From Sarea resinae (lineage: Eukaryota), in the NCBI GenBank assembly GCA_026026165.1, contig JAPEUD010000022.1, positions 1 to 64,000 of the forward strand: a stretch of 64,000 nucleotides of DNA. The letters are read 5' to 3'. Position 1 is the stretch's first letter; each line of letters begins with the position of its first letter. Below the pieces are notes generated by a model. That model had not been told where the DNA came from, did no database searches, and saw nothing but the letters and a program-made list of their open reading frames with translations. The position numbers and the translations under genes were made by a program. Below are positions 24,687-43,717 of the stretch, piece after piece.

Positions 24687-25026
24687 TTTTCTTTTTTAGC
24701 ATCGTGTTCAAATTCCGAAAGGGTAAAATGTCTTATAAATGGTACTTCGTTGAAAATGCGGATTTACTTCTTCAACCCAATGTGAACTTCCTTTCTCGGT
24801 CGTACACCCAAACGTCGGCGGTCATCCGCCAGGTACGACTCGACTTCGGCTTAACATTTCGTTTCTAACATTCTACTCAAATAAAGGTTCAACGCGAAAA
24901 TGATGATTGCGGTGAAAGCCTTGGAAGCTTTCTCTCTTACGGCTTGTTCGCTTCCTTTTAGCCCTCTTCATACCCATTTTGATGCTGTCTGGTGTGCCAA
25001 AGTGTAAGTTGAGCTATACGTGGCCG

Positions 25027-25953
25027 TCACCAATGTTTTCTTTCTTCACTTTCTAACAGCAGATTGTGCAGCTTGGACAAGGCCTCTACATCTATCGAAA
25101 ATTCAACACGACGCTTCGATACGATGGATATGGTTTCACGTTCCGATAGCAACCTATCCATGACGCAACGGTTTCGCGAACAGATCTCCATAGCTCGCTG
25201 GATGAAGATGGCAGCACCGGTCGTTAGCAAGTGTTTAGACTGGAGACCGATCAAACAAAAGCTGTTGAGGATTGCCACCCCCTCTCACTTCTTCTGATAC
25301 TTGTTCCTGAAGCCAATCATAGTATTGCCTGGTCAAACCTGAGATTCTCGGCGAAGTCGATGACTCCGGCAGCGAAGCAGGCGCTCCAACGCCCGATCTC
25401 GACATTGGCAAGGAAGGATCATAACGGCGCCAGCATCAAGGTCTTTGTCTCTTCGGTTCTGAATACAACGTTCCGATGATGATCAAACTCGTCAATCATC
25501 CCAAATCTTCGCCAAGTCTACCAAGCCAGTACTCCACCCATCTTCACCGGATTCGCCGACAAGACGGAAAGAGAGTCAGCGACACATATGCTCTTACAAT
25601 GTCAACAAAGTGCACTACTGATTTGCACAAGCTTGCCCGATCTAGCATGATCAAGTTTGAGCCCTTCTCGGTGGCCATCTTTCCGAACGTGGTGTTGGGG
25701 TCGACCTTCGCTTGAGGGCAAGGATTTGCGATTTCTGCCCATGCCCAAAGCGAACTAAGTGGTCGACTTCTAAATCCTTGGCGGCATAGCTTATTCCAAC
25801 TACTTTGTTTACGGTCGGCTCCAGGCATACGGAGGCAAAAGCTGGAAAAGAGCTGTCGATATCAACTGTACAAAAACTTTGGCACGTTCGCCGGTCTATC
25901 TGGTAAGATCTCGTCCCGATCTTGCGTGTGTAACTCGGCGTATCGAATTCCAT
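25027..25953 (-). pseudogene. Disrupted orphan gene
   Basis: Long protein-like minus-strand segments (MEFDTPSY.., KVDPNTTFGKMATEKGSNLIMLDR.., MIDEFDHHRNVVFRTEETK.., AILNSFCLIGL..) linked by frameshifts, TGA stops and an intron-like GTAAGA..GCTGAC. Confidence 0.55.
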
Positions 25954-26860
25954 CTAACAGGGCTTTTAGGATAGCTATAAAACGTTATTGTCCGCCGTGG
26001 CCGCCTTTGATCAACGAAACTTTGATAATTAGCAGTCATCGTCGACCGGGAACAGACCCTGACCAAGTGAGTGATGGGGTTCTAATGTAGATCTATCAAC
26101 CTGAAATGCCATCCACTTTGTTGCTTGGACAACTGAAGAGCAACAGTGCGAGATTCATAGTGCTATGATCACCTATCAAGAATTTGGGTCTTTCCCCTAC
26201 CGAGCTCTCGTGTGTGCGCTAGGATGACTACGATTTTCTCTTTACGTTGATCTCTCTTCCAAGTCTAATGACGTGCTAGTATTACACGATGAATGTATGT
26301 CTGATGAAGTTAGAAGTGGTATCGATCAAAAAGCTATCCTACGAAATAATCAAGGAGTAGATCAAGCTCTTAGCTGGTTTTCCTGGCTTTCCAAGGCACC
26401 AATGGGCTGTATGAAGAGAGATGGATGCGCAAGGCCAGTGAAAGATGAGGCAACTTCCGAAACACACACAGTCATCTACCATAGAATCAGAGAGAATAAG
26501 AAGGATCTCAGTAGCCTTTCATTCACAGTCGTAGTCGTCTGTCTAGTGCTGTAATTGGATTCCAGTAGCGAATGAATCAGGGCATAGGGCTCGTGTCGTA
26601 GTTGTGTAGACGCATACAGACTTTGCTGTGTCGAACCTTCTTCTTCTTCAACCACGCACCCTCATCACAACAACAATTACAGCTACAGCAACAGATCCAA
26701 CAATATCAACAGCAACGGCAACAGCGATCACCACCACTACTACTACTATCACGACTACCACGACGACTACTTCCATAAGGTGAGTATAGCCACTGTTACA
26801 AGTGTCATCCTCGGTACAACGCTTTCAGATAGAATGATGCTGATAGAGTGTGTGGCGTAG

Positions 26861-27559
26861 ATGGATCGATTTGTTACACGAGTCGATTTTCAGGCGGCTT
26901 GTGAGATGTGGGGCACACAGATGGAGGCGGTGAGGGCAGAGCTGGCCACCCTCACGAACGTTAATGCAGAATTACGCAGAGAGATAGGGCAATTGCGGGG
27001 ACAGCAACCCGCACAACAACAGCAGCACGGAGGTGAGGCCGCCCAGATGTGCGAAATTTGTCGGTCCGCCCATCGTGGGATCTGCCGCTTCGCCGACAAC
27101 ATAAACGCCGCTCAGTTCCCGATGTGCTTGAGCTGCGACAGACGTCACCTTCACCGGTGCACAGCCTTCTGCCGCCAATGCAATGCCCGCGTTGGCCATA
27201 ACGAGAATCATTGCCCTCAGAGGGCCCAACGCCCGGCCGCCGCGCCCCTAATCGCCCACCAGGGTGGCTTCCACTTTTATGGCAACGACGCCCATGCTGC
27301 TGCAAGTGCAGCTCGTGCTTACGGACGAGAGGCTCGGCCCCGATCCAGGTCACCTGGACGGGGCGTTCAAGGAGGGTACCGTGACCGCCAAGGCGGTCGT
27401 GGCAACAACAATCGTGGCGGTAATAACCGCGGCAGAGGCGGGGCTGCTTTGCCCGCCCTGCCCAATAACAGACTGGTCGAGCTACCGCAAGGGGCTCAGG
27501 CTCAGATTCGAAACCCGGGTGACAATAACAATCCCGATGACCAGAACATGGCCCAATAA
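26861..27559 (+). CDS. 232-aa zinc-knuckle protein (coiled coil, 3 CCHC knuckles, RS/RGG tail), Gag-nucleocapsid-like
   Basis: CEICRSAHRGIC, CLSCDRRHLHRC, CRQCNARVGHNENHC; RSRSPGR and GGRG/RGRGG motifs; leader intron GTGAGT(26780)..GCTGAT..TAG(26860) immediately before the ATG. Confidence 0.85.
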   Translation: MDRFVTRVDFQAACEMWGTQMEAVRAELATLTNVNAELRREIGQLRGQQPAQQQQHGGEAAQMCEICRSAHRGICRFADNINAAQFPMCLSCDRRHLHRCTAFCRQCNARVGHNENHCPQRAQRPAAAPLIAHQGGFHFYGNDAHAAASAARAYGREARPRSRSPGRGVQGGYRDRQGGRGNNNRGGNNRGRGGAALPALPNNRLVELPQGAQAQIRNPGDNNNPDDQNMAQ

Positions 27560-28069
27560 ATAGCTACGGCTCAACAACTAACAAAAGCCTAAGTGCTCAA
27601 AAATAAGCCCAAGTGCTTCATGAGCTTACAGGCTCCAATTTTCGATGCTTGAATGCTTTGCTTTTCTTTTTGTTAGCAATGTATTCGTTTTCCTCAACTT
27701 GTCTTGACCGCTGGTGCCGTGACCCTGAAACATGATGCCCTTGCCATTCCCGTAAGCCATTCTTCTAAACTGATAGTAGGCCAATCAACTCTCCGACTCA
27801 AAACCGTAATCCAAGCCTTACGCATGTGCGTCACGACCGAGATTCAACAATCGTCCGCAGCCAAATATTCAATCGTCACCTCCCCGCCCACGATATTTTT
27901 CACACCAGTGTGATACAATCACTTAGCCAAGCCACGGCATTAGAGGAGCAACTACGGATCCAGCAAGAAGCTTCTGCCTCTCTACATCCTGAGCCACTTG
28001 ATGCTTGTAAACAGCATTCGTCATCCGTCCAACGAATCAAGACATCGAGAAGCCTCCATCAGACCAACG

Positions 28070-28732
28070 ATGAATCCATCCACCAATCTGCTCGAAACAT
28101 ACGTCGATAGGCCTTTGCCGGAAGCTCCAGATGTTGTCAAGGCTGATTACGATGCCAATTTCGCCTGGGAGATTACGAATACTCTGTATCGTGACAGAGG
28201 GGTTACCATCACTCAACGGGCGTTCAATCGGGCTCTTGTTCAGGTTGCAGGGCTCTTAATGCTCTCACTTGGTCTTCTTCTCGAGATTACATCAACACAC
28301 GTGGATGATCCTCCTGATGCGAACGGTAACTACTGGTGGCATTTCGCCAGAAACCAGGCTACCGGGCGCCTCGACTGGGTAAGTAATTTTCTCGCAATCG
28401 CAGCAATTCGGACGGCTGATGTGCCATAGCTTACTAGCAACGGCGCCGTGATCAACTTCTGGGATCAACTACCGTACCGATCGCCATTCTTCTGGTCTTC
28501 TCTGGTATGTCGTCGGGACCTGGCAAGAATGAGGCACCACGAGCGGCGCTACGGTACTTCTCCGACTGTCGCTATGCTTCAAAAGTTCATAGGAGTGTGG
28601 AATCTCCTCAGGATCTCAGTAAACTACCACCGAGAAAATGGGTTTATGGCGACTGAAGAGTGTGTCAGAGAGATAGCTGACCTCCAGCGACGTCTCGAAG
28701 ATTTGCGCAATGGGCTCGGTGCAATCCGCTGA
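28070..28732 (+). CDS. Orphan 203-aa protein with a C-terminal coiled coil (2 exons)
   Basis: Exons 28070-28378 and 28430-28732 joined in frame by a GTAAGT..GCTGAT..TAG intron. Confidence 0.75.
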
Positions 28733-28999
28733 CTTCTCCCTCGCCTGCACTGTAACTATCCTTTTGGCCTTCCGGCAGCCATATGCTGCTAGCTATACAA
28801 TGAAGCATTGATTAAGGCTCACAATACTCTTTTTTCTGTGCCCCTCATTCCTGTGGTCCTCGAGAAATCTTCCCGGAACGTCCAGTAGCTGCGGGCCTTG
28901 GTGTCGCTTTTGTGCCTTGAAAGAGCCATCTCCTGACATGCAAAATTGCTAACGAATTTAGGATTAACCTGGGGGGCCTTTGTCTTTCATTCTCAGTTT

Positions 29000-29900
29000 G
29001 CTTTCGTAGGCTAGCTACCTTTTTGCACTAGATTATATCTAATAGAAATCAGTTGGTCTGTGGACGCGTGCTAAACTGGTTGTGCTATATAATCTCAAGG
29101 AGCTTTTAATCAACTTTTAGCCTTGTACCTGATCCCCTAGCATGGTGTATTTGCGGCAGAATTTTAATTCGTCTTTATATTATGAAGCAGCCTTGATTCT
29201 AATCACCCTAAAGCACCTAGAGTATTACAGACTAACACAGAATACTCTAGATATTCCTAAACGCTTTTATACACCTATAGAACCTAGTACAATAGAATGC
29301 TATAGACGATGAGAGAATTATCTAGAAGACAATACAATTTCTATAATATTAGTTATATAACAACCATTGTCTACCTTCTATAAAGTGTGTATACTATTAT
29401 TTCATATGTTCTTATCATGTATGTTAGTCTATAAAATAATTCTTGCAAATTTATATATATCTAATAGTATAATATCTTACTTCCTAAGACTTTTTCTTTA
29501 AAAGATATAATATGTTTATAATATATATTTAATACTTCTTTTTCTAAAGATTTTCTTATAAAACTTTCATAATATTTTTCCTCATATCTTTTTAATAAGT
29601 ACACTTACCAGGATTATGTCTCCCGCGAAAAGATGGCCGAGGTATGCATGTCCAACTACGACCCCTCGTTCTCCAGTGCGCTGCGCTATATAGTGGGCAA
29701 ATAGGCATAGCCCGAACGAGCCGGGTTATAGTAGTCTTTTTGGATGGCTCACGTGGGAACAGGCTTGCCTACTATTTACTAGTCCTTACAAAAGAGAATC
29801 AAGTCAAATATAACTTTACTTTAGAAAGGATAGAAAATTTGATAGTCTTTTATTCTAAAAACCATTAGAAGTCTGCCAAGTAAATACTAACACGTAAAAC
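29000..29900. mobile_element. AT-rich, RIP-like mutated repeat relic (copy 2, inverted relative to copy 1)
   Basis: The reverse complement contains ACTATAACCCGGCTCGTTCGGGCTATGCCTATTTGCCCACTATA and TGTACTAGGTTCTATAGGTGTATA, matching 5656-5700 and 5818-5841. Confidence 0.75.
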
Positions 29901-30401
29901 TTTAAGCTGCACTACACTGTAGTGTCTGTTTCACGATAAGAAATTGTGAGATAAATGCTCAGATTATTCGACCGCGTTTATCGGTGGGCACCTCAGTAGA
30001 TGGACATAGGATTAGAGAAACTATGAGCATATATAGCAATCATGATGAGTCAGTTTCAGCAAGCAAATTCCCGTTCCCTAGACCGTTTTACACCGCGATA
30101 CATGATATCGAGCATCATCTTCCCATCTACTGCCTGCAGGCCGGCGACCAAAGCCGTCTTTCGCGCCCATTACGGAGCAACGATCGCAGGCCTCGACGAT
30201 ACGACCTGACTAGAAGGCCAGTCCTCCTCCACTTCAGCCTCTTATTTCCTTTCTCTCTGTCCCTCTCCCTTTATGCCCTTCCTACCCCCCCTCCGGCACC
30301 TTAGCCATTCCTCCCGTAGCAGTGTTCTCGATCCCGCAATGACCTGCTGGAAAGTAAACCATTAGTATGAATCCTTAATGATGCAAAGACCCTACATGTA
30401 A

Positions 30402-30531
30402 CCTGCTGCATTGCAAGCGTTACATCGCGGGTCACACCGCAGGCCTCGATAGCATCTCAACAGCACCCTGCTGCATTGCAAGCGTTACATCGCGGGTCAC
30501 ACCGCAGGCCTCGATAGCATCTCAACAGCAC
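30402..30531. repeat. Exact 65-bp tandem duplication
   Basis: CCTGCTGCATTGCAAGCG...CTCAACAGCAC at 30402 and 30467, identical. Confidence 0.97.
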
Positions 30532-30899
30532 CACTTCCGCTTCCCTTGATCCCTTGAGAATAGTCAATGAGTCGTGGGTTCGGTGGTCCCATTCCATGGC
30601 CTGGTCCCGCCCTGTCAGAGAATTTTCGAGCCACCGACAGCCCTGATGTCCACCCCGTAAAGGCGAGTCACGCATGGTGAGAAGCCGTTTGAAGAGATGG
30701 AAATCGCCTGTAGCTGATTCAATTCCAACAGTAGTTGGCAAGAGGAAAGCTGTGTGTGGAAAGGTCATCGCCTCATTCAATGCCGTTGTCGTAGTCTGCC
30801 GGAGCCTACCAATCTGACGTTCGCCGGGAGGACTTTGCGATTATGTTTCGACGTTTAGATGATCATCTCACCAAGTCGAGTAGCGACTTTGCTGGTTGA

Positions 30900-32480
30900 T
30901 GTATGGCTTTGATCGATCATTCCTGAAGTGAATTGTGCCCCTCGAAGCGGATGGTTAAAAGGCCAAGACGTGGTGTGCACGCGGCGGTGATGAGTATGTC
31001 CTGCAAACCCACAAAATAGTAGAGGATTGTGCAACGCAACAAGATCGTTCGCTTTTTTTTCCCATTGTCATGAGAGCCGACAGTGACCCACGGTATAGAG
31101 AGCCGACCGAAGCTCCGGCCATCCAACGAGATTCCGGCGCAATGAACAACTTGAACCATGAGCTACGTCTATCTATTATTGGCGGCCTTGGCGGGCCCCT
31201 GTTCTGCTGGAGGTGATACCAGTCAGGTAGATTACACATCGAATGTTGGGATACAGAGTTCCTCCAACAAGCTCTTGTTTCGAGATTACCTAGGCGTGGT
31301 AGAGATTGGCAGACTACGTAAAGCGTCCGGAGATGCTCATGCTCGCGATTGGGACTCACAGACCCGTGGGCGGAGTATTACTTGAAGCCGGGAGGCGGTC
31401 GGAAATTTGGAAATGGCCCGGAAATATGCACTCGCTGTTCCAGCAAAGATAGGAAACGATTCCTTGAGAAGCACAAGCTTCTTCGAACAGAGTCTATAAA
31501 GTGTACAAGTAGGTGGACGTTGGGAATTTGCTGAATCCGGATGACATCGAACCTTTCGAGTTGAAGTACGTGATGTGATTGGTAACCATAACAAAGGCTT
31601 GATCATTGGCGTAGATCAACGGGAAGCATTTGAAGAAATAGATAGAGATGGTAATCATATCATGTCAGTGCATTCCAAGATTGTGAAATTTGATCCGAGG
31701 TAAAGGAATGTTACCGGTGTCGGAACCACCACAGAATCCAATCTCTGAATCCGCTTCAATGTTTGTTGGCGGTCATAAGTTTCGATCGCGATACTTGGAT
31801 AATCGCAAAAACTATCCCTTCATTGCTTGCTTGGTCACCGCACATGAGACATGAGGAATGCAAGATGGGAGCTCATGCGGATTCAAAGTAGCAACCACTC
31901 GGAGACTGATCCGAGGGAAAAGCAGCTTAGCGGGCAGAAAGACGACAATCGAAAACGGTACCGAACCTTGGACATGGTAAACGACGGTAGAGGTCAAGCT
32001 CGCGGGATGTTGGGAGAGCACCAAGCCCAGATCCTCGAACTCCCTCACTCATGACGCCAATGATCCCAATTTCCCGCCACGGCCCAAGGCTTGTCGACCA
32101 CCTGGCATGTCCACACAATTTGACCGTCAAGATCGTTTGCACTGACGTATCGAGGGAGCATTGGCTTCACTTCCTGTGCCTGGATCTCCCAATTCGCTCA
32201 GGTCCTCGTCCGCAAACACAATGTTGGAGATTGAATCCTCACTCGAAGATTTGGTCTAGAATCCAAGCGTGAGCTACAGTCGCCGCAATTGTCATCTGTT
32301 ATCGCAAGAGAAGCGCCCGCCGTTCTTCGTGCTCCTCTTTCGTCTGGCTTCTTCCCTCCGCGGTGTTTGCAAGGCGTCGAGAAAGCCGAGTTGTAAGAAA
32401 TGCGTTGACGAAGATTCGCTCAAGTTCTCTTCTTCGAGCAGCTTCTCCCGCTACTGCCGCTGATTTCCTGTAGATTTGCA
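30900..32480 (-). pseudogene. Decayed gene, paralogue of 15.2-16.2 kb
   Basis: AWILDQIFE*GFNLQHCVCGRGP vs FWIANTT*GSDYSLCHCVCGPQNP; shared DNA block at ~31213; multiple stops. Confidence 0.55.
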
Positions 32481-33548
32481 ACTTGGTGGTGGGAGAGGAA
32501 GGAGATGTGCAATGGCGATCGCTTGAGCTGCGGGCTTGGTCTCGGAAGTAGTGGGCAAGTGGGATCGAGATGCCAATTTAGCGAGATTCGTAGCCAGCAC
32601 GATCAACGTTCTACCGGCTCAATCCTTCAGATGCTCTAGTCCGAGGATGACTGCAAAGCTTTTCATACTGCCTCTCATTCAAGAGTGACGCTTAATGATG
32701 CTTTCGAACTACTGTAAATGTACTCTGTCATTCGGAGATCGCTTTGTTGGTTTCTGCTCCGGTCCGAGGCCGAGGACTGGCAGCGCGGATCGTTCAGACC
32801 CCCAGGCTTTCTTATTCACGCACTTTAGCCACCGTGTAGTCCTCTGGGACATGGGCAAACTCGTGCTAATCAAGAAGGCTTAGGCACTGCAGAACCGATC
32901 AAAACCGGTAGATCTGACCGCTTGAACGATCGATGCCTTTACGAGTTGTAACCCGGCGGCGGATGACGAACTTCCATCGGCGAGTATGGTTGGGTCGAAC
33001 CATGGAACTATAATACCATTCTAGTGGGCACCCGTGGCTCACCGTCTGATGAGGAGTCTTTGTATGGGGCGTAAGAGCGGGTGGGCCATGGATACAGTAC
33101 AGTGGGCACGGATGGCCCGCCGGTTGGTGGCACGGCGTGGTGATGATCAGGCAGCGATGATCTATTGATGAAATTGCCTCTTGGCTAGAGAGGGCCCTGT
33201 GGAAGAGTCAGTCAAACTGGACGGTTTGGAAATACAGATGATGAGGGATAATGGGTGCCGGGAAAGCATACCTACCATCGGAGAATCGTAGGAGATATCA
33301 ATAATGTCCTCGAGTTCGTCATCTACCCGTATCTGGTTCGAAAGCAAGAGAGCGGTGAAGGTGTTAAGCTCCGCCGTGAGTGAGGATAGTGAGTTGATTG
33401 TCGGGAGTCGGTGGCCGGCTCAAAATAGTCATCGCACTGTCCGAGCAGAGAAGCGATAGAGCGATAGAAGATATGCAGAGGACGCTGAGCTTTCTCGTCA
33501 TTCTTTGTGAATATAGCACCGCAATGCTAATGTCCGCAACAAAGTACC

Positions 33549-33591
33549 ATGCGATGCAATGCGATGCGATGCAATGCGATGCGATGCAATC
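33549..33591. repeat. Pentanucleotide microsatellite (ATGCG/ATGCA)n
   Basis: GCGATGCAATGCGATGCGATGCAAT... seen directly. Confidence 0.9.
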
Positions 33592-34179
33592 ATGGTAAGC
33601 AAGGAAATCTATTCACTTGAGCTGGCTGCCAAATGCTGAAGAATCTGCACTCATGCGTCAGTCTTTCGGATTCGATCGCGACACGATTGTTCCAGGACTC
33701 ACCAGAACTTTGCGTAAGGGCGCGAACATGAGGCGCAACGAGCGACGAGAGGCTGTTCTTCCAGACTGTCCTTTCCGGCTTTCAGTCACATCATCTCGAA
33801 TAGATCTCCATGTCTTGCTCACGTTTCATATCCCTGCCTTCTCTATTCACCGCTCTGGCGCTCCACCGTATTCCATACATCGCTCCGTCTCCAGCCGGCG
33901 ACTGTGAATCGCGGATCAGTCTTCCAACAACTTCACAAGGAAGCATCGCTCAAACATACAATTATCTCCCTCCGTCAGCCGCATGGCCTCCCAACTCATT
34001 CCCGGCGTCCAATTTCCGTGGATCCCAGCCGTCCAGGCAAATGCTGATGAAGTCCGGGTTCTGGTGACTGCGGAAATAAGTAGCGCATCCTAAAGTTCAA
34101 GGAAAGAACAAAGAGACGTGAAACGCGAAAAGAAAAAGTAAGAAATGAGAAGAGGAAAGAACGAAAAGGAATCGCATCT

Positions 34180-36230
34180 TGGATTGCCATCCGGCGGTGA
34201 AGAGACAGCAAACCCGGATCTAGTGGTCCCCCCAATCACCAAATGTAATTCAATCAAGTTTTGGACCTCCGTCCGGCTGAAAGGGTCAACCAACCCAGCG
34301 AGGCAAAAGCATGGAGAGTTCTCACTCGATCGCAATCTCAGAGGCGATCATCGCAGGTTCGGAGTAGATCCCACTCGACCTTGAAGAAAGGCTAATCTGG
34401 GTATAGGATTCCCATCCAGCTGTACGAGGCAGCTCACTCAAAGACAAAGTGTTCTCACACGGCCGCGGAGGCGATCAGCTTGGGTTCAGATTCACTCACT
34501 CAATCGTCAAGACAGTCCGTTCGAGTTTGAGGCCACCGCCTGGCTGTGAGAGACAGCCGCCCCAATTGTCGGAGACAATCAAGTCCAGATTTCGATTGTC
34601 ATCTAGCCTGAAAGCACAGCCTGTGCAGATTTGGATTTCTCAATCAACTGTGAGAGGGAGTTGTCTCGGGTTCAAAGTCGACTCACTTGGCCGCAGAAAA
34701 ACGGGCCCCTTTGGATTGAGGATTCCCATCCGGCTGAAAGACACAGCCGCTTCAGGTTCGGAGTTTGCCCACTCAACCATGAAATACGGTCCAAATCGAT
34801 ATGTGATTCTCATCCGGTAGGATGACAAGACCCGCTCAGATTCAAAGTTCTCACTCGACATGGGGAAGGTGTCCGTTCTGATATATGATTCTCATCCGAC
34901 TTGGAGAAAAAGCCCATCCGAATTGAAAGTTTCCACTTGACCTTGGAAGAAGATTCATCTAGATACACGATTCCCATCCAGCTTTAAGAAAAAGCCCATC
35001 CATCTTCGGAGTTCTCACTCAATCATGAAAAATAATCCATCTAGACATAGGATTCTCATCCGGCCAAAAGCCTTGACCTCGACGGAAAGGAAGCTAGAGC
35101 TTTCACTCGGCTTCCGCGGATCAGAGTTCTCACTCGACGGTTGAAAACCGTCTACCTAGATGTAGGATTCTCATCCGACTTGAAGGACAAGTCCATTCGA
35201 ATTTGGAGGTCTCACTCAACCATGAAGAACGGCCAATCTAGAAATCGGATTCTCATCCGGCCAACAGTCTCGGCCTCGACGGAAAGCAAACCGGAGCTTT
35301 CGCTCGGCTTCCTCGATCAGAGTTCCCACTCGATGGTCAGGAACCATCTATCCAGATTTTGGATTCTCATCCAGCTGTCAGAGACAGCCCCCTCGGTGTC
35401 CGAATTCTCATTCGATTGCAAGAGGCAAATATCCCGGGGTCAGAGTCAGCCCACTCAACTGTAGAACACAGTCCAACTGGATGTAAGGGATTCTCATCCG
35501 GCAGCAAAAGGCAACCAGCTCACGTTCGAAGTCTCCACTCGATCTTCGAAGAAGATCCACTTGAGTACGAGGACCTCTGTCCGGCTGTTCGAGACAGCCA
35601 ACTCGGTGTTTGATTGGGGCTCCCGCCCGTCTGCGCAAGGCGCGACTACTCTGGGTATTCAGAGTCCTTTCCCACTCGATTGTAAGAGACAACCAACTTG
35701 AGGTTTTGGACCTGCGTCCGGCTGTAAAGACAGTCAACCTGGAGCCGGAGACGAAGTCCGGCAGGGCTCTCGCCCGAGCGTCAAAGACACTCCATCTTGA
35801 GTAAAGGAATCTTCATTCCGCTGCTAAAGGGCAGCTAGCCTGTCGTTCTGGATTCCCATCCGTCCGTCACAGACGGCTTCACTGGCTTGAAACAGTCGAT
35901 CTGGATCCAGGATTCCCATCCATCTGCATACAATAGACCACAAGACAGTATTGGACCTTCGTCCAGGCGCTGAAGAGACGACATCACTCGACTGTCGAGG
36001 AAAGTCGGGCCTGTGTTTAGGATTTCCATCCGGTCTGTGGAAGAGACAGACTAAATTCAGATAGGGGATTCTCATCCTTCCGTGGAAGAGACGGCGTCAC
36101 TCGACTGTTAAAGGACAGTCCCCCTATATTGAATAATTCTCATTAGCCCGTACATCACAGACAAAGATTCGTTTCGGGTCGACATCCGGCCATAAGGAGG
36201 CCTGGGCCTAGGTTTGAAGATCCCCACCTC
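34180..36230. repeat. Non-coding array of ~41-bp units, each a conserved core plus a sequence-variable 17-nt hairpin
   Basis: Cores GGATTCTCATCC and GAGTTCTCACTC alternate (same-type spacing 81-84 bp at 34720, 34804, 34886, 34969, 35050); each is followed by an inverted repeat; no long ORF. Confidence 0.9.
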
Positions 36231-36891
36231 TCCAAAAGGTCTACGGGGTGTCGAGTGTCGACTAAAGGAAGAATTAGTGGCCATCGGTCAAAAAGGAAGA
36301 CGCTTACAGTCTGGTCTACGGAAAAGGAGGAACAGCCACGCAGAATCTGCCGCGTAGTGGTCGAAGACCATTGACCCGGCAGTGAGACATGACGCCCATC
36401 ATACGGAGGAGATTTTGTCTCGGACCGTTGTGACCACCATGACCTCTTCACTGCCGGGAAAATGGCTATCCAAGAACTGGACAATGCCGCATGCAAAGCA
36501 ATTGGCACCAGAAGAACTTCACAGGGTCTCTTCAGACGTGCCTGTTCCGGGGGAGGAAAGCAAAAAACGAGGGAACCAAAAAACGAGGGAACCAAAAGTT
36601 GTTTTGACATGGACGTTTCAGGTTCGGTTTGGCTGAGTCATCTAGGCACCGACCACCGCTTTCTTGTTTGGGACTTGAAGCAAATGCGGATTGGGCACAA
36701 GGGGCAGAGTAGGTGATTAATTGACATAGACAATTCTACTGGCACACCCGATCCCAACACTAGCCAAGTCCTAAAGTGATCTTCGTTCTCCACAGTCAAT
36801 ACCATTAATCAATATTCTGCACAAACTCTCACATCAACAGGTAATAATACATTGAATAGCTTCGGACAGCAATCGTTATATCATCCTGGAA

Positions 36892-37950
36892 ATGGAACAG
36901 CCATCACTTGAGGAACGTTTGGAACTTCTGCGTCAGTATAAAAACGACTGTACTTTTTCGAGAATAGTATCATTGACAGGGGCAGCTCCACTCCGATCAC
37001 CTCCGCCATACATCAAAGAGATGCTGAGGCAAAGACGAGAGGAAGACGAAGACGAAGACGAAGAAGACGAAGATGAAGTTATGGGGCCCTTGACTGGCCG
37101 CAGAGATCGTGGGACCGTCGATAACATTGTGGCTGAAGAGTCCCGAGTAGCCAATTCTCCAGAAGCTCCGGAGATCACAAATACAGATATGGATATGCCG
37201 CCGCGTCGCCGTGAGATTACTTACGGTCATAGTCGCCGTATTCCCGCGCTGGATTCGCAGGGAAACTTCACAATGGTGGATCTAGATGTATGTATTGAAA
37301 TAGTCAATACTCAACCATCACTAAATAATGCAAAGGACAATTCCACGAGTGCCAATGCCGCCGCCACCGCAAACAAGGCTTCTGCCACGAGCAGATCCAG
37401 CCGCCATCGCAAGGTCAGCCCCCCCGAGATTATAATCGAGGACAATAACAGTGTGATGGATGAGGGTTCAAGCACAGAGAGCGAAATCACTGTTATCCCG
37501 TTTGCAAAACCCGGAAAGTTTGCCGCCTCACTCCGCAGCGCAATTGCTGTTCTCGACACGACTGACACAGATACTGACGTGGCTGCAAACAACCTGCCAA
37601 CTCCGCCGTTGCCGCAGCTGGATTCCGATTTCGAGGTGGCTGGCGACGCATCGCCGCGGCAAGAAAACCGAACCAGTCGAAATTCAAGGAAGAGACGACA
37701 CGAAGAAATCGAGAAAGAGAACAAAGGCGAAGAAGAGCAAGACGCAGAGCAAGAGGAAGAGGAGTTTCGAGAGCCAGACAACTCCGATGACGAAGACTAT
37801 GTCGATGAAGGACTAGCAGCGCGGAGAACCTCTCATCGGCCTCAGACAAGGAGCCGTACTCGCCCTCAAGCACAGAGCGTTACTCTGCCGCAGGAACGAA
37901 GCCGTGCTAGATCGGCTTCCAAATATCCGCATCCTCGATATCGTTATTGA
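36892..37950 (+). CDS. 352-aa low-complexity acidic/basic orphan protein, probably disordered and nuclear
   Basis: Uninterrupted ATG-initiated ORF; poly-D/E tracts, RKRRH NLS-like motif, RS-rich tail. Confidence 0.75.
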   Translation: MEQPSLEERLELLRQYKNDCTFSRIVSLTGAAPLRSPPPYIKEMLRQRREEDEDEDEEDEDEVMGPLTGRRDRGTVDNIVAEESRVANSPEAPEITNTDMDMPPRRREITYGHSRRIPALDSQGNFTMVDLDVCIEIVNTQPSLNNAKDNSTSANAAATANKASATSRSSRHRKVSPPEIIIEDNNSVMDEGSSTESEITVIPFAKPGKFAASLRSAIAVLDTTDTDTDVAANNLPTPPLPQLDSDFEVAGDASPRQENRTSRNSRKRRHEEIEKENKGEEEQDAEQEEEEFREPDNSDDEDYVDEGLAARRTSHRPQTRSRTRPQAQSVTLPQERSRARSASKYPHPRYRY

Positions 37951-38383
37951 TCATTGCTAGACGAAAAGTCTCATCAAACAGACGAAAGTCTCAGCAAACA
38001 AAAACCTGCACATGCTATGCAATGGCCTGCTCAAACAGGTCCAAGAATAATCATTGCACATAACAGAAAACTTTTATATATACTAGACTCAAGAACAGCA
38101 ATAGAATCTTTGAATGCAAGAAACCATATATTGCTCCTGATAGCTATCTCATCTATTCCTAGCCCTGAGAATCTGCGCCGATATAGGAAGAGAGTCAGCC
38201 CCCTGAAGCTATAATCTAACCACTGCAGCTTGCTCTTGCAGTGCACTTGCCATTGTAGGCCGACATAGATAACATGACTTAGGGCTGGAACCACGACTAG
38301 AGACTTGTATGAGCTTAAATCAGCACGAGCATTGCCTGCTCGATAGCAGCCGGTCAATCCATGGACATACCGAACAGAGTCGC

Positions 38384-38740
38384 CTAGGCCGCGACGGAGA
38401 TAGACGCAAATGGAACGTTGGTGCAGGTTTCGGCTCCGATGGTGCCAAAGGTGCCGCAGCCATTGTCCGGCATGGTGAGTCCGCATTCGGCATTGCTGCA
38501 CCCCGCGGACCCAAAGAGCGAAACGGCTCCGCTGACTTCGGTCACGTTCACCGAGAACAGGTTCTCTTGGGATTCAATGTTGGTGCAGTCGAGCCCCACG
38601 CCGGCGTTGTCGCCGACTTCGTAGTAAGATGGTCCGGAGCAGTCGGTGGTGCTGTAGAGTGCCACGTTCCATGCTGTCGAGGTTCCGGCGAGGTTGAGGA
38701 GTGCAAAGGCGCCAGTAGTCATGGCCGAGGAAAAATGCAT
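38384..38740 (-). CDS. Small secreted cysteine-rich protein (118 aa), effector-like
   Basis: Hydrophobic signal-peptide-like N-terminus ending STA-W; 6 Cys; motif VALYSTTDCSG. Confidence 0.8.
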   Translation of the reverse strand: MHFSSAMTTGAFALLNLAGTSTAWNVALYSTTDCSGPSYYEVGDNAGVGLDCTNIESQENLFSVNVTEVSGAVSLFGSAGCSNAECGLTMPDNGCGTFGTIGAETCTNVPFASISVAA

Positions 38741-40170
38741 CGTGCGATAAGTCGAGTATTGGATATCTGAAAGGGGAGAATGAATCGAATATGCCAGAGG
38801 AAGAGTAGGTCGTAATAATGAGGATCGTGATGATTGCCGAGGAAGCTTGGCAGGAGTGTCGATATCTTTGAAGACGGATTGTCCATAGATTTATAATGAC
38901 CAGACAGCTCCATAATTTCACCAAGAAGTTCCAACAGCTACGTCGCTTAGTGGTGATGATAGGGAGAGGAGATACGAGAGATCGACATGTATCAGGGTCT
39001 GCAAGCTTGAAAGAGACTATGATTGTTTCGAATTTGAGTTTCCTGTATGTATCCAGGCTGTAGATACAGGGTACATTAGTTTCCACAAAGACGGGTAAAA
39101 GATCACCTGGCTGACAGGAGAGAACAGAGTCGGCGTACCTTGTTGGCGCCTGTTCGACCCCGCGGACCTGTTTCCCGCAACCAGGCTTGAGCGGAAAGAG
39201 GTAGCGTGCCCATGAAGCGCTGAGCCTGGTTCGGTCCAGCCTTGCGGCTTACGGTATGGGTCCCAGGACAATGGCCCCTAAACCAACTCGGCAAAGCAGT
39301 CTCCACGCGAAAGCTGCGAAGCATTGGTCCAGGTACGACGTCGATCCACTTCCGACCGACTAATGGACGCACCGTTCCGTTCCTGAGGCTTGCACGGCTC
39401 AGCCCCAGGTTTCGTACCCCAGCAGCCCTTCCTGTTACTCGGCTTAATGACACGATCGCCCCGGACCAGGCACGCAGTAGTTTGTAGGTAGGATGGTGAA
39501 TCCCAACACCCGTCGCATAGCTGTCGAATCAGATCAGGGCTTCAATCTGTTGATAATCTGACGGACATGAGATTACCGCCTGTATTGCAACCTCGCGTAC
39601 CTTGATCGTTCTCGTGTGAAGACTGCTGCTCGCGCAGGCATAAATCTCCGAGTCAGTAACATCTTATACATAGAGTAGTAATTGTTATGACAAATTGCGT
39701 TTGGGCAGATACCTGATTGAAATGACAGATTGGTCATATCCCACATCTGTTGCGTCGTTGTGCCTGCTGCTGCCAAGTGTAAAGATCTAGGTAGATGTGT
39801 GCTTTGCTTGTTTGGATGCTGCAAGTGAATTGAGCTCGGTATTCGCTTTCGGCCTCGACGCGTCAATTATTTATTCGGTCTGAAAGTCCTATCAGGTGTG
39901 AATAGAGTCAAGGTCTCTGTGCATCGTAGTGAAGGTTTCGACCTTTGGTGAAGATAAGATCATATGAGCTCACGTAGAATTCGCGTTGTAAACATGCCTC
40001 AATAGTTGCATCAAATCAATTGACGGAATGGGAGATACTCAGCCGCTGTGAGCGGCGATGGGTGGATGGCTTTGAATGCTCAATCGCTTCAGTCGCGAGG
40101 GTATGACAGCACTCAGTAACAGGATCCTGCATTACATATCTGCGTGCAAGGTCATTTCTACCAACAACCG

Positions 40171-40267
40171 GGTGCCTTGGTTGGGAACCCGCTGCTGACT
40201 GTGACGGCCTGTCTTTAAGATAGATGCGGGAACGGCGAGTGTAGGGGTTCGACTCCTCTGGGCGCCA
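40171..40267 (+). tRNA. tRNA-like gene or pseudogene with a collapsed D-loop and a probable intron
   Basis: Acceptor GGTGCCT/GGGCGCC+A, T-arm AGGGG-TTCGACT-CCTCT, anticodon stem CGCTG/CGGCG enclosing 38 nt, D-arm reduced to GGTT-GGG-AACC, downstream T-runs. Confidence 0.55.
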
Positions 40268-41814
40268 ATTCTTTTTCACTTCATTTTTGATTTTTTTGAC
40301 TTAGTACCTCCCCTCCGCGCAACTACCTATCTTTGTAAAATGAGAGGAGATTGCACGAGATACGAGTACGGTGGATTGATCATTATTCTAGCAGGGCATC
40401 TCGAAACCTCATTTGTGTACACTCCACTGGATTCTCTTTGATCCCTGCCCATCTCGCGGTCAAGCTCTTGCTTTTTTTTGTCTACTGTCTCTCGGAATTG
40501 ACACTTTCTCTTCGAAATGCCTTCTAAAGCTCGTCCTCTGTTACGAGGGTTTAGCCGTTCTCAATCCTGATCTCCTCAACTGGCTTCTGGGCTGACCAAG
40601 ACACACAGAATTACTGGCCATCCGACAGCTAGCCAGGCTTCATTTCCCCAGCGAAGTGGAGCCCAGAGCAACGTCGGGCCTTTGATGATGCCGCTCACCA
40701 CGAAGCTGGCGGAGTCTACACCATAGACCCTGACAACCTGCTTCGTGAGCTAGGACTGCACATCTACATTGAATAGTGCATCAGCCAAGGGCAACAGCGT
40801 CGAAGTGATCGTGGGACGAAGCTGGGGAGGCACATGAGAGAGATGGAGAGGTCGATGCCAATAACATCAAAGTATGCGTAGGTGGCCGACAACAGCCCAG
40901 AGCCCGAGGGGACTATTGTTTGGGAGTTGTTGCTTATCAATTAAAGAAGATATGGCTAGTCTTCTGGCCGCAACCACATCAGAATCTTGCATGTCGCACT
41001 CTGCGGCCTCACTATTTTTACCCTGTATCGGCCTGACACCATGTTTGTCCAGTGAATCGAGAAGGCAGTCAATGTCATCTATAAGTGCGTCGAGATGAAT
41101 GAGTCTGTAGACTCCACACAGGCGTCTTCTTCACCGACAGTTTTATCATTTCTGCCTCCTGTACTTGCTATTACTGGCGCAGAGCCAACACGGTTCCATA
41201 TTGCTGAGCGGAGAGGGAAGCATACGGTCGAGAACATCATCTTCTGCAAACATGCCGTTTTATTGGAGGAGCAGACTTCCCTAACCCACCGCGGGACCAC
41301 CCTCCCAAATCTCACTTTTGTCATCGGCACAGAAGCATATGGAAATATAAGTGCTAACGTCAATCATGCTTACTTCCAGATGTTTCGTGGTTGGTTGTCG
41401 TCGCAAATAGACGCCTATACTGCTGCATTCCTAGGCAGTTTTTCTCTCAAGAGACCAATCTGTTGGCTCCTTCTGCTTTCGCTCCGTAGAGGTACTAGTA
41501 CCGGACTGTGAAATGGTCCCTAGCTGTCCTCGTGAAACGTCGGCAAGCCATCGGACCCATCAATTTGGGGGAAATAAACTCTGGAACTTGTCGAAAGCCA
41601 ATATGTAACCGGACAGACAATGAAGGGAGCGTTTCCTTTTGGTTCAGATATTTTGACAATACTCTAGAGATCACCCATCGCTTTACGTAACGAACGAATC
41701 TCTACGCGTCGATCGAAGATATCATCATGGAGCCTCGATGCCAGAGTCGCGATCGCCGCGCAGAGAAGAGTAGGATCAAGCAGTCCCTCCGGGGAGTCGT
41801 ATGTTGGCCCAGCT

Positions 41815-43717
41815 ATGGTGCCCGAGTACGCGGGACCGCCGAAGAGGCAGGTGGGGAGAATGCGGGGCGTGTCCGAGGACTTCCAGTCATCAGCCACCGT
41901 TTCGAAGAACTTTGATATCAGGAGACGGGACGAGCGGGAGGTCCGGACCTTTGCCGTTTACTTCCGCAAGGTGCGCCTCTGTTGCACGGAAGTGCGTTGG
42001 AGCGAGCTTGGGTCGATAGCGGACTTCAGATTGCCATCATAGGTGTGTTGTCGGAGAAACGCATACAGCATGACCCAATCGACGCCTTGCGATGGGGTTG
42101 GATCAGAGACAACAATGAGACATTGGTAGAGAAGATTGTCGTGCACTTACAGGACGTAAAAGCCAAGGACGGTGACCTATTCTCGGCCGCAGGTGAGATA
42201 TGGGCCGTTTGTCGCCGCAAGGGATTCCCAGACTTGAGCGTTGATATTGGCACAACCAACGGATGGACAGCGGTACAATCTTATCTGTTGGAAAAGACCA
42301 TCGTATGAGTTCTGTTTGGCCGCATTTACCCTCCTAGGGAAAGGCGAATGGGTTAGCCGTTGAGGTTCTGCGCCGAGGCAAGAGCGGATTAGGGAAACAG
42401 AGCCCGCTGGCAGTCGTGGTCACGATTAAGAAGCCCTCGACGCGTAATTGGAACCCGGTCGAAGCGGCGATTGTGAGTCTCCTCGAGGATGGACAGCTCG
42501 ACGATGTTGCGGTCGAATTTGGACGAGGGAAAAGAATGCTTCATATCGACTGGGACGGTCTGGTAGGACTAGTATAGGACGCTATGGCTCCGATAAGGGT
42601 ACTGGGACTTTGGGCCGATTTGCCGAGATCAATGACAGCTCAGGATAATGGACAAAGTACGGAATCATCTGCTATCATTGTGCCATACCGAGAAAGCAAT
42701 TGGGATATCGAAAGAAGGTCGGTCTAATAAACAAGATTGATACCGAAGATTAACAGATCACAGAATTACACCGGTACCGCGGCTCTGGAATCAAGCCAGG
42801 TAGAGGGCAAAAGCGTTTCAGGCTCGACCACCCAGGCCGCAGAGATTTGGCGGGGGAGATGCTCGACTGGAGAAGAGATGGATCTAATCAAGAAGCGCGC
42901 CGCGTACGTTTGCATACGCAGCCAAATTGACAAAGTTGACGAAGATATTGCTTTGAGGAAAGAGAGCAGCGCCGGTTTGACCAGCTACAAGGCCGCATCG
43001 ACGTGAACAGCTGTAGACGGCTGAAGCGCATGAAAGAAGAGTCAGAAGGAAAATTGTTTCTCGGCAAAGTATGGGCGGCATCAGGGACACGCATAAGCAA
43101 TAAACGGTTAGAATAAAGCCAGTACACTCGACTGGGCGCTGGTGGACATTAAGCAGTCGCACAAAAATGTTGCGGTCAACGTGGTGAGCTATCTCCTCAT
43201 CAGAAAAGAACGAACCCTAACGAAGTCAGGCAAAGAAGAGACGCCACGCGTCATCAGAGACTCGTAGGTTCCGATAGAGCCACTGATAGCCTAGCACAGC
43301 TTTTCAGCACTCAAGCACGAGCAGGACCTTTTCAAGGTCGGAAGAACAACAGGGTCCACATGGGGAGTTTATAGCGGCCTAAAGACGGCCAGCATGCGGT
43401 TCTGGGCCAGCTATGCCGGAGAGGGAGAAGCCAAGGAAGATTTCACCACGGACCATTTCGTTGTAGGGACGCCTTCCGTGAAGAATATGTTCTCGGAGGC
43501 AGGTGGCTCTGGCTCGATGGTCTTTGATATGGGCGGCAGATCCGTGGGCCTGATGTTTGGGGGCAATAGCCACTCGTTTGTGTCTTATTTCACGCCGGCG
43601 TCTGCCTTGTATGACGAGATTCTCGGTGTGACGGGAGCAGTAGACATCGGACTCCCTCGAGCAAGGATGCAGCAGATATGCAGCAGATGCAGCGAGTACG
43701 CTCGAGGTACCTTGTAA
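41815..43717 (+). pseudogene. Fungal trypsin-like (Ssy5/Nal1-type) serine protease pseudogene
   Basis: Ordered motifs GTLG, YGIICYHC, DWALVDI, LFKVGRTTGST, FSEAGGSGSMV, GLMFGG, YFTP; split by many stops and frameshifts. Confidence 0.75.

What the first reader, a model, noticed from the sequence alone, without database searches (positions are those of the whole stretch)
34180..36230. 2-kb array of ~41-bp units with conserved cores and covarying 17-nt hairpins
Seen: each core (GGATTCTCATCC or GAGTTCTCACTC, often alternating) is followed by a hairpin of about 17 nt with a purine-rich loop. The stem sequence changes while pairing is kept: AGCTG-TACGAGG-CAGCT (34418), GGCTG-AAAGACA-CAGCC (34732), GACAT-GGGGAAG-GTGTC (34857), GACGGTT-GAA-AACCGTC (35136), GACTTG-AAGGA-CAAGTC (35177), GATGGT-CAGGA-ACCATC (35332), GATCTTC-GAA-GAAGATC (35541). 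A second small hairpin often precedes the core (CCTA-GATG-TAGG, CTTG-AGTA-CGAG). Ordinary minisatellite decay does not give compensatory changes. Inference: selection on structure, either a repetitive structured ncRNA or a hairpin/protein-binding DNA array with a period of about four helical turns. Both G-T and A-C mismatches occur, so the functional strand is unresolved.
Basis: seen in the sequence. Interest (0 to 1): 0.82.

Follow-up and report, generated by a model that had tools for sequence, protein, structure and literature searches.

The report
Fungal tandem array of paired hairpins
A 2-kb stretch of fungal DNA is built of about 45 diverged repeat units that each keep the same two small hairpins while their sequences change, which points to an undescribed structured non-coding RNA read from the bottom strand, though nobody has yet shown that it is transcribed.

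Summary
Window 34179-36224 holds a head-to-tail array of about 43-46 half-units (41 bp; A and B types alternate as an 82-bp unit). Copies are only 60-79% alike, the array is single-copy, and it has no long ORF and no Rfam, Pfam or protein match.

Each half-unit keeps a 4-bp hairpin (the "core", itself a covarying palindrome) abutting a 6-bp hairpin. In 37 aligned units 82.4% of cells pair on the minus strand. Partner shuffles give 64.1±1.5% (0 of 500 reach it) and slid registers give 27-47%.

Two diverged 197-bp blocks allow a controlled test. All 6 double changes keep Watson-Crick pairing, and 8 of 11 one-sided changes give A·C on the plus strand, which is G·U on the minus strand. All 10 isolated interior mismatches are of that kind, while unpaired columns show no matching mutation bias. 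Read on the minus strand, 29 of 37 core loops are GNRA-type.

Best reading (about 0.45): a minus-strand modular structured ncRNA that offers many copies of a protein-binding double hairpin. Transcription, conservation in other fungi and the binding partner are untested, and folding energies are unremarkable. A DNA-level hairpin satellite kept paired by template switching is the main rival.

The parts
34179..36224 (-). Whole array: about 43-46 half-units of about 41 bp, all in one orientation. The strand given is the inferred functional one; the units were described on +.
   Evidence: nhmmer profile; covariance model, 43 matches; my segmentation into 46 pieces; strand
34720..35570 (-). Regular centre of the array, with strict 41/82-bp register and alternating A (GGATTCTCATCC-type) and B (GAGTTCTCACTC-type) half-units
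   Evidence: Spacings; repeat families D1-D8; lag 41/82 self-match
34927..35123 (-). Higher-order block, copy 1 (four half-units plus a 33-nt insert that holds an extra core-like hairpin)
   Evidence: Family D7; global alignment to copy 2, 147 of 197 columns identical
35124..35319 (-). Higher-order block, copy 2. This is the paralogue used for the controlled count of compensated changes.
35124..35152 (-). Example B module: a 4-bp hairpin (loop GAGA on the minus strand) abutting a 7-bp hairpin
   Evidence: 31.9 bits
35165..35193 (-). Example A module: a 4-bp hairpin (loop GAGA on the minus strand) abutting a 6-bp hairpin with a pyrimidine pentaloop on the minus strand
   Evidence: 32.5 bits
34090..34178 (-). 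Purine-rich tract on +, so pyrimidine-rich on the minus strand, directly downstream of the array in minus sense. Its role is unknown; a 3'-end or termination zone is only a guess.
   Evidence: Read
36225..36891 (.). Spacer between the array and the neighbouring + strand gene. It is the only place for a promoter of a minus-sense array transcript, which would diverge from that gene (inferred, not shown).
   Evidence: Sequence; gene
36892..37947 (+). Neighbouring orphan gene for an acidic, low-complexity protein
   Evidence: One database relative, 90% identity, named 'hypothetical protein M1819_002490 [Sarea resinae]' (MAG); no Pfam family

Best explanation
The array encodes a long non-coding RNA read from the minus strand (right to left in window coordinates), at least about 2 kb long. 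It probably starts in the 36.2-36.9 kb spacer, divergently from the neighbouring gene.

The RNA is a string of about 45 modules. In 5'->3' minus sense each module has three parts:
- a linker of about 12 nt;
- a 6-bp (5-7 bp) hairpin with a pyrimidine-rich loop of 3-7 nt;
- directly abutting it, a 4-bp hairpin capped in most units by a GNRA-type tetraloop (GAGA, GGGA, GGAA, GAAA).

Stem sequences drift freely but stay paired. The first and last loop positions, the closing pair and the junction are the conserved letters. The most likely mode of action is as a multivalent platform: many copies of one small double-hairpin site that bind, concentrate or sequester an RNA-binding protein, in the manner of repeat modules in animal lncRNAs.

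Shown: the array, its pairing, the compensated changes and the strand asymmetry. Inferred: that the single-stranded molecule is RNA, that it is transcribed, its ends, and the protein-platform function.
For: (1) Pairing.
- In a gapless alignment of 37 units, 82.4% of 370 cells pair on the minus strand. Partner shuffles give 64.1±1.5% (0 of 500 reach it) and slid registers give 27-47%.
- 89 cells show a change on both sides, against 30.9 in shuffles. All 10 pairs show double changes. The plus-strand figures are 79.2% against 61.0%.
- The second hairpin played no part in choosing the units. It pairs in 73.0% of cells (minus) or 68.5% (plus).

(2) An unguided scan of all column pairs ranks 2-11, 3-10 and 4-9 (first hairpin) top by mutual information. 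Pairs 14-28, 16-26 and 15-27 (second hairpin) are among the leaders.

(3) Controlled test on two duplicated blocks that are 74.6% identical, covering 44 homologous pairs.
- 26 pairs are unchanged Watson-Crick.
- 6 pairs changed on both sides and all stayed Watson-Crick; 3 of these involve transversions, so they are not RIP-type transitions.
- The 11 one-sided changes split into 8 A·C<->WC, 1 G·T<->WC and 2 mismatches.
- P(6 of 6 stay paired | 1/3 each) = 0.0014. P(>=8 of 11 are A·C | 0.25) = 0.0012.
- The stems of the second hairpin are the fastest-changing part: 0.44 differences per site, against 0.33 in the linker.

(4) Strand.
- In 25 well-formed second hairpins, all 10 isolated interior non-Watson-Crick pairs are A·C on +, which is G·U on -. 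None is G·T or any other kind (binomial p 0.002).
- Unpaired columns show no matching bias: G>A+T>C 30 against C>T+A>G 27.
- The RNAalifold consensus of ten 82-nt units is -10.1 kcal/mol on - and -3.4 on +.
- Per-unit MFE is lower on - in 27 of 43 units (Wilcoxon p 0.0015).

(5) 29 of 37 first-hairpin loops read G-N-R-A on the minus strand. The loop's first position is at least 90% G.

(6) Local folding. 15-16 of 43 modules have z<-2 against their own shuffles, compared with 3 and 7 of 148 control windows in the two flanks.

(7) It is not an assembly artefact and not multi-copy. One independent 5520-nt contig spans 32651-38170 with 0 differences, at the depth of the flanks (388 against 357-377).

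(8) It is not coding. The longest frame is 137 aa, there is no Pfam family, and the 41-bp period breaks the frame at each unit.
Against: - No evidence of transcription. No listed run that holds the stretch is RNA, and the only holder may be the source sample.
- No related array was found, so all covariation comes from paralogous units of one locus. These share ancestry and are not independent.
- The 37 unit starts were partly picked by me for a palindromic core, which inflates the figures for the first hairpin. The second hairpin and the block comparison are free of this bias.
- Thermodynamics are weak. 300-nt windows give z from -3.3 to +1.6, like the flanks.
- In the equilibrium ensemble of a 921-nt stretch, module pairs have mean probability of only 0.37 and 0.46 on the minus strand, and 0.32 and 0.36 on the plus strand.
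- The first hairpin has only 4 bp.
- Composition-corrected z-scores do not separate the strands (-1.43 against -1.25, p 0.17).
- 8 of 37 core loops are not GNRA on the minus strand.
- Over all cells the excess of A·C over G·T is modest (28 against 16).
- Replication template switching can create and repair hairpin stems without any RNA function (PMC8794818; abstract and the opening of the introduction read).
Confidence: 0.45

Rival explanations
1. A functionless (neutral or selfish) hairpin-rich minisatellite. The units spread by unequal exchange. Their short inverted repeats are created and repaired at the DNA level by replication template switching, or by repair within transient hairpins, so paired stems persist without selection on any RNA.
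For: - The array is single-locus and has no relatives in any collection searched.
- Folding energies are unremarkable.
- Edge units are more decayed than the centre, as in ordinary tandem arrays.
- Template switching is reported to make perfect stems and multibase compensatory changes in one event (PMC8794818; abstract and the opening of the introduction read).
Against: - The remaining mismatches are one-sided: 10 A·C, 0 G·T and 0 other in interior positions, and 8 against 1 between the duplicated blocks. Unpaired columns show no such transition bias (30 against 27). A repair mechanism acting on duplex DNA should leave a symmetric spectrum.
- Pairing is kept in units that have diverged 25-40% and in stems as short as 4 bp, where DNA hairpin extrusion is unlikely (inference).
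- Loop ends and closing pairs are conserved while the stems drift.
Confidence: 0.25
2. A single-stranded or non-B DNA element. The minus strand folds into hairpins during replication, transcription of a neighbour or recombination, and this marks a chromosomal function (origin, fragile or recombination site, or a small centromere-like locus with dyad symmetries).
For: - G·T wobble is also tolerated in DNA hairpins, so the strand asymmetry fits one DNA strand as well as an RNA.
- The array lies in a stretch of about 8 kb (28.7-36.9 kb) without a convincing gene, beside a RIP-like high-copy element.
- Short (<10 bp) dyad symmetries are reported as a feature of centromeric satellites (PMC5889037; search listing and start of abstract only).
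Against: - The array is 2 kb and single-copy, at the depth of its flanks, with GC 0.51 like its surroundings.
- 4-bp stems with 4-nt loops are too weak for cruciforms (inference).
- No second array lies in the 64 kb.
- GNRA-type loop conservation has no known meaning in DNA (my own knowledge).
Confidence: 0.1
3. A double-stranded array of palindromic binding sites for a dimeric transcription factor, spaced about four helical turns apart, that regulates one of the flanking genes.
For: - The array fills most of the spacer upstream of the + strand gene at 36892.
- The 41-bp period would put the sites on one face of the helix.
- Fungal-type transcription-factor genes lie in the window, at 51457-52191 and 57852-58754.
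Against: - Half-sites vary among at least 12 complementary pairs. A dimer that reads each half-site would lose binding with each change, and a matching change in the other half would not restore it.
- The second hairpin's stems are the fastest-changing part.
- A duplex site cannot produce an A·C against G·T asymmetry.
Confidence: 0.05
4. Debris of a repeat-protein gene or of a transposable element (foldback or MITE-like arm, or an internal tandem region).
For: - Some reading frames repeat a short motif; for example, the translation of the A core recurs.
- One 801-aa library protein scores E 3.3e-08 against a 137-aa frame of the array.
Against: - 41 and 82 are not multiples of 3, and all six frames carry stops (longest 137 aa).
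- No Pfam family and no word-sharing relatives.
- The one library hit is the translation of 12 identical copies of an unrelated 58-aa (174-bp) perfect repeat. It matches a single 22-residue stretch of the query, with pairwise E 0.004, so its library E-value is inflated by non-independent copies.
- No inverted copy of the array and no flanking inverted repeats.
- Depth equals the flanks.
Confidence: 0.05

Closest known systems
Tandem hairpin modules inside animal long non-coding RNAs, for example the A-repeats of Xist (recalled; PMC6917512 and PMC4672913 seen only as search listings)
   Same: Head-to-tail copies of a short module whose conserved part folds into small hairpins separated by linkers. 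The working idea is that many copies bind one protein.
   Different: - Xist A has about 8 copies of a well-conserved sequence. Here about 45 units differ by 20-40% and keep pairing through compensated changes.
- The module here is a double hairpin with a GNRA-type cap.
- The host is an ascomycete.
- No transcript or binding protein is known.
- There is no sequence similarity, and no Rfam match at E<=5.
Bacterial REP/BIME-type palindromic repeat arrays
   Same: Short hairpin units with variable but paired stems. Two unit types alternate in tandem, in intergenic DNA.
   Different: - REP elements are dispersed in tens to hundreds of copies per bacterial genome and are linked to a RAYT transposase.
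- This array is a single locus in a fungal nuclear contig. No copy lies elsewhere in 64 kb, no extra depth is seen, and the pattern does not form arrays in prokaryotic genomes (3 single matches, about the number I expect by chance from my own estimate).
Satellites with short dyad symmetries / non-B DNA at centromeres (PMC5889037; listing and start of abstract)
   Same: Tandem repeats that carry dyad symmetries shorter than 10 bp.
   Different: - Those are long, homogeneous, multi-copy satellites.
- This array is 2 kb, single-copy and highly diverged between units, and its mismatch spectrum is strand-specific.
Ordinary minisatellite
   Same: Head-to-tail array with higher-order blocks and decayed edges.
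   Different: Pairing is preserved far beyond the shuffled and slid controls, and changes are compensated.

Membership tests
Any curated RNA family (Rfam 15) | Match to a covariance model | tested here: not met
   The only match at gathering score in the window is 5S rRNA at 55918-56037. There are 0 matches at E<=5 over 33900-36900 on both strands.
Structured ncRNA (generic) | Base pairs kept through compensatory changes above null models | tested here: met
   (0 of 500 shuffles; slid registers 26-47%). Caveat: the units are paralogues of one locus.
Structured ncRNA (generic) | A transcript exists, in the predicted sense | not testable with these tools
   No listed holder is an RNA run and no genome is held.
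Structured ncRNA (generic) | Conserved in related species | tested here: inconclusive
   Pattern scans gave only single matches, about the number I expect by chance from my own estimate: metagenomes 3, prokaryotic genomes 3, viral contigs 0. No collection of fungal genomes was available.
Structured ncRNA (generic) | Folding more stable than shuffled sequence | tested here: inconclusive
   Modules: mean z -1.25 (+) and -1.43 (-), against 0.0 in the flanks. 300-nt windows: z -3.3 to +1.6. Pair probabilities: 0.32-0.46.
Xist-A-like lncRNA repeat module | Multiple tandem hairpin modules that bind a defined protein | not testable with these tools
   The tandem modules are met. Protein binding cannot be tested here.
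REP/BIME-type mobile palindromes | Many dispersed copies per genome and an associated Y1/HUH transposase | tested here: not met
   One locus only in 64 kb. Depth equals the flanks. No Pfam family in any of the 57 ORFs of at least 90 aa between 24 and 43 kb.
Foldback / MITE transposon | Inverted copies or terminal inverted repeats that flank the unit | tested here: not met
   All units have one orientation. Only short, weak inverted pairs lie nearby.
Repeat-protein gene (intact or decayed) | Period a multiple of 3, an open frame, and protein relatives | tested here: not met
   Period 41/82. Longest frame 137 aa. No relatives. The single library hit is explained as an artefact of a perfect repeat.
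RIP-mutated repeat | TpA/ApT high and (CpA+TpG)/(ApC+GpT) low | tested here: not met
   Array: 0.40 and 1.26, GC 0.51. For contrast, the element at 29204-29770 gives 1.21 and 0.82, GC 0.32.
Palindromic transcription-factor site array | Conserved half-site sequence | tested here: not met
   The half-sites covary instead of being conserved.

The most novel reading that the evidence does not exclude
A fungus makes a long non-coding RNA built of about 45 self-similar double-hairpin modules (a GNRA-capped 4-bp stem stacked on a 6-bp stem with a pyrimidine loop), each kept folded by compensatory evolution. This would be a natural multivalent RNA scaffold or protein sponge of a kind so far described only in animals. 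It would also be a case where RNA-level selection can be read from the paralogous units of one locus, without any other genome.
Probability: 0.35. Interest if true: 0.8.

Novelty: new variant of a known kind. Interest (0 to 1): 0.6.

Why it matters
Structured, repeat-built lncRNAs are known mainly from animals, and fungal lncRNAs rarely come with any evidence for selected structure.

If this array is transcribed, it gives a compact and testable case. About 45 natural variants of one small RNA module already amount to a mutational scan that shows which letters matter (loop ends, closing pair, junction) and which only need to pair. That would make it straightforward to look for the binding protein and to test function by deletion.

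The locus also shows a method. Strand-specific G·U signatures between diverged tandem units can assign a strand and argue for single-stranded function when no related genome or RNA data exist.

If it turns out to be untranscribed, it becomes a clean example of short hairpins maintained at the DNA level in a eukaryote.

Tried and rejected
- Whole-genome search: no genome is held for this window.
- RNA evidence: no RNA holder is listed. The only run that holds the stretch may be the source sample. The two other runs of that study gave only low-complexity matches.
- Earlier notes of this scan: nothing by place or by sequence. A search by words returned only bacterial REP-like arrays.
- Literature by the two core strings and their reverse complements: 12 papers held at least one string; the 11 listed show nothing relevant by title or start of abstract.
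- Literature on tandem hairpin lncRNAs: nothing fungal that resembles this.
- Pattern scan for two cores 41 bp apart:
  - metagenome contigs, 3 single matches without arrays;
  - prokaryotic genomes, 3 single matches;
  - viral contigs, 0 matches.
  - By my own estimate from the pattern's information content, a handful of matches per large collection is expected by chance.
- Looking for related arrays through spurious ORFs: a word-based protein search found none. Full HMMER over 1.84 billion representatives found one hit, which I judge an artefact of 12 identical target repeats.
- A third hairpin in the linker: not supported.
- Kissing between the purine and pyrimidine loops: the complement of a unit's own first loop lies in its second loop in 6 of 37 units. 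The mean over all unit combinations is 4.3 per 37. Shuffled loops give 2.9±0.8, and 60 of 1000 shuffles reach the observed value, so this is not significant.
- RIP as the source of the paired double changes: rejected. 3 of the 6 double changes need transversions, and the RIP indices are negative.
- Resemblance of the plus-strand GAAGA/GAAAA loops to GNRA-like pentaloops of phage boxB sites (recalled): not pursued, because the mismatch evidence favours the other strand.
- C/D-box or k-turn reading of the core: no Rfam support.
- Pol III transcription of the minus strand: unlikely, because several runs of five T occur on that strand (A5 on +, read). This is an inference.
Full report
**What is there**

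Window 34179-36224 is a head-to-tail array.

- A profile made from five 82-bp units finds copies only in this interval and only in + orientation. The best match elsewhere has E 0.56.
- Self-match peaks at lags 41 and 82 in 34401-35600, with z 4.3-5.5.
- The unit is 82 bp and consists of two 41-bp half-units. Type A has the core GGATTCTCATCC and type B has GAGTTCTCACTC.
- Copies are only 60-79% identical, which is why Tandem Repeats Finder reports nothing.
- A higher-order duplication of about 197 bp (34927-35123 against 35124-35319) is 74.6% identical.
- I segmented 46 pieces by eye.
- A covariance model of the 29-nt double hairpin finds 43 matches in the array, all +. Six of them were not in the training set. 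The 13 matches outside are weak; the best has 16.8 bits and E 0.17.

**Context**

- The window is fungal. It holds fungal-specific transcription-factor domains and an MFS transporter at 51-59 kb and a dispersed 5S rRNA gene.
- The right-hand neighbour, 36892-37947 on +, has a single database relative at 90% identity. A source names that relative as a hypothetical protein of a Sarea resinae MAG.
- None of the 57 ORFs of at least 90 aa between 24 and 43 kb matches a Pfam family.
- The stretch 29.8-34.1 kb shows only short overlapping frames.
- An independent de Bruijn contig of 5520 nt spans 32651-38170 with no difference, at the depth of the flanks (388 against 357-377). The array is therefore neither an assembly artefact nor multi-copy. 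That run may be the source sample.

**Anatomy**

- Its stem covaries. Variants include GGAT/ATCC, GAGT/ACTC, GGAC/GTCC (four units), GGGC/GCCC, AGGC/GCCT, GTGT/ACAC, GATT/AATC, GAAT/ATTC, AAGT/ACTT, GAGC/GCTC, GGAAT/ATTCC and TAAT/ATTA.
- In a strict scan for this shape, 24 of the 30 plus-strand hits in 64 kb fall inside the array. The minus strand gives 7 hits in the whole window.
- The core is followed without a gap by a second hairpin of 5-7 bp with a 3-7-nt loop, and then by a linker of about 12 nt.
- An all-against-all scan of columns -13 to +43 ranks the first-hairpin pairs 2-11, 3-10 and 4-9 top by mutual information. The second-hairpin pairs 14-28, 16-26 and 15-27 are among the leaders. 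No third helix appears, so the 'second small hairpin before the core' is not a general feature.

**Is pairing more than chance?**

I used a gapless alignment of 37 units (29 columns) and the fixed structure of 4 + 6 pairs.

| Strand | Cells paired | Partner shuffles | Slid registers |
|---|---|---|---|
| Plus | 79.2% of 370 | 61.0±1.5% (0 of 500 reach it) | 26-41% |
| Minus | 82.4% of 370 | 64.1±1.5% (0 of 500 reach it) | 27-47% |

- Cells with a change on both sides number 92 (plus) and 89 (minus), against 34.4 and 30.9 in shuffles.
- All 10 pairs show double changes.

Two caveats apply. I chose several unit starts because a palindromic core stood there, which inflates the first hairpin's 95-97%. 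The second hairpin played no part in that choice and pairs in 68.5% (plus) or 73.0% (minus) of cells in one fixed register. Also, the units are paralogues, so counts of cells are not counts of events.

**A controlled count**

The two 197-bp blocks give five homologous sets of hairpins, with 44 pairs in all.

- 26 pairs are unchanged Watson-Crick and 1 is an unchanged A·C.
- 6 pairs changed on both sides and all 6 stayed Watson-Crick. Three of them need transversions.
- 11 pairs changed on one side: 8 are A·C<->WC, 1 is G·T<->WC and 2 are true mismatches.
- If a second change restored pairing one time in three, 6 of 6 has probability 0.0014.
- If one quarter of one-sided changes gave A·C, 8 or more of 11 has probability 0.0012.
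- The stems of the second hairpin are the fastest-changing part (0.44 differences per site, against 0.33 in the linker, 0.27 in its loop and 0.17 in the first stem). The stems are therefore not kept paired by being conserved.

**Which strand**

- Over all cells, A·C outnumbers G·T 28 to 16.
- In the 25 well-formed second hairpins, the 10 isolated interior non-Watson-Crick pairs are all A·C on the plus strand, which is G·U on the minus strand. None is G·T or any other kind (p 0.002). The filter used treats A·C and G·T alike.
- Mutation bias does not explain this. In unpaired columns, departures from the type consensus are 30 (G>A + T>C) against 27 (C>T + A>G).
- RNAalifold on ten 82-nt units gives -10.1 kcal/mol for the minus strand and -3.4 for the plus strand.
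- Per-unit energies are lower on the minus strand in 27 of 43 units (p 0.0015). Composition-corrected z-scores are similar (-1.43 against -1.25, p 0.17).
- Read on the minus strand, 29 of 37 first-hairpin loops are G-N-R-A (GAGA 18, GGGA 7, GGAA 2, GAAA 2). The loop's first G is at least 90% conserved.
- The second hairpin's loops are then pyrimidine-rich.

**What argues for caution**

- Global folding is not unusual. 300-nt windows give z from -3.3 to +1.6 on either strand, much like the flanks.
- In the equilibrium ensemble of 34700-35620, module pairs have mean probabilities of 0.32 and 0.36 (plus) and 0.37 and 0.46 (minus).
- Locally the modules do stand out: 15-16 of 43 have z<-2, against 3 and 7 of 148 windows in the two flanks.
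- No RNA run holds the stretch.
- No related array turned up in metagenome, prokaryotic or viral contigs, nor among predicted proteins as a spurious ORF. No collection of fungal genomes was at hand.
- Rfam gives nothing even at E<=5.

**Explanation**

A double-stranded protein-site array does not fit, for two reasons. Half-sites change freely as long as they stay complementary, and a duplex cannot show an A·C against G·T asymmetry.

Coding debris does not fit either. The period is 41 bp, stops lie in all frames and no relatives exist.

RIP does not explain the paired changes.

What remains is a single-stranded molecule of minus sense whose two small hairpins per unit are under selection. The simplest candidate is a minus-strand non-coding RNA, transcribed divergently from the neighbouring gene out of the 36.2-36.9 kb spacer. 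It would present about 45 copies of a GNRA-capped double hairpin as a multivalent site for a protein. I put this at about 0.45.

The main rival (0.25) is a functionless satellite whose stems are made and mended by replication template switching, a process shown to produce compensatory-looking changes (PMC8794818; abstract and the opening of the introduction read). It has to explain the one-sided mismatch spectrum. A non-B or single-stranded DNA role (0.1) shares the strand signature but lacks other support. Short dyad symmetries are known from centromeric satellites (PMC5889037; listing and start of abstract only).

**Novelty**

The searches found no report of anything similar in fungi. The nearest analogues work alike but are not relatives:

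- tandem hairpin modules of animal lncRNAs, such as the Xist A-repeats (recalled; the papers were seen only as listings);
- bacterial REP/BIME arrays (recalled; earlier notes of this scan).

I rate it a new variant of a known kind. Its standing depends wholly on showing a transcript.

Noticed in passing
window 29204-29770: AT-rich element (GC 0.32) with summed contig depth of about 19,600 against about 370 for its surroundings, and many loose ends at its borders. RIP-like dinucleotide indices (TpA/ApT 1.21; (CpA+TpG)/(ApC+GpT) 0.82). Probably a high-copy, RIP-mutated repeat or transposon fragment.
   Followed up: partly
window 30402-30531: Perfect tandem duplication of a 65-bp unit, two copies at 100% identity. 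The independent contigs break around 30431-30503.
   Followed up: no
window 28700-36850 (wider: 24000-43000): About 8 kb without a convincing open frame around the array. None of the 57 ORFs of at least 90 aa between 24 and 43 kb matches a Pfam family, which is unusually gene-poor or orphan-rich for a fungal contig.
   Followed up: partly
window 35062-35123 and 35259-35319: In both higher-order blocks one A half-unit carries an insert. It holds an extra core-like hairpin (GAGC-TTTC-ACTC / GCTC) enclosed by a further 6-bp stem (GGAAGC...GCTTCC in copy 1). This is a possible variant module.
   Followed up: partly
window 55918-56037 (+) and 24613-24686 (+): A dispersed 5S rRNA gene (80.7 bits) and a tRNA-Arg(ACG) gene. 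Both are ordinary.
   Followed up: no
window 33549-33590 and 36553-36597: Small simple repeats flank the array region: (ATGCG)n of 7.8 copies, and a 16-bp unit of 2.8 copies in the spacer towards the neighbouring gene.
   Followed up: no
protein P0002 (library representative, 801 aa): A predicted 'protein' that is the translation of 12 identical 58-aa (174-bp) tandem repeats, preceded by a stretch that looks like translated telomere-type repeats. It is a spurious ORF over a satellite in some other genome and is unrelated to this array.
   Followed up: partly
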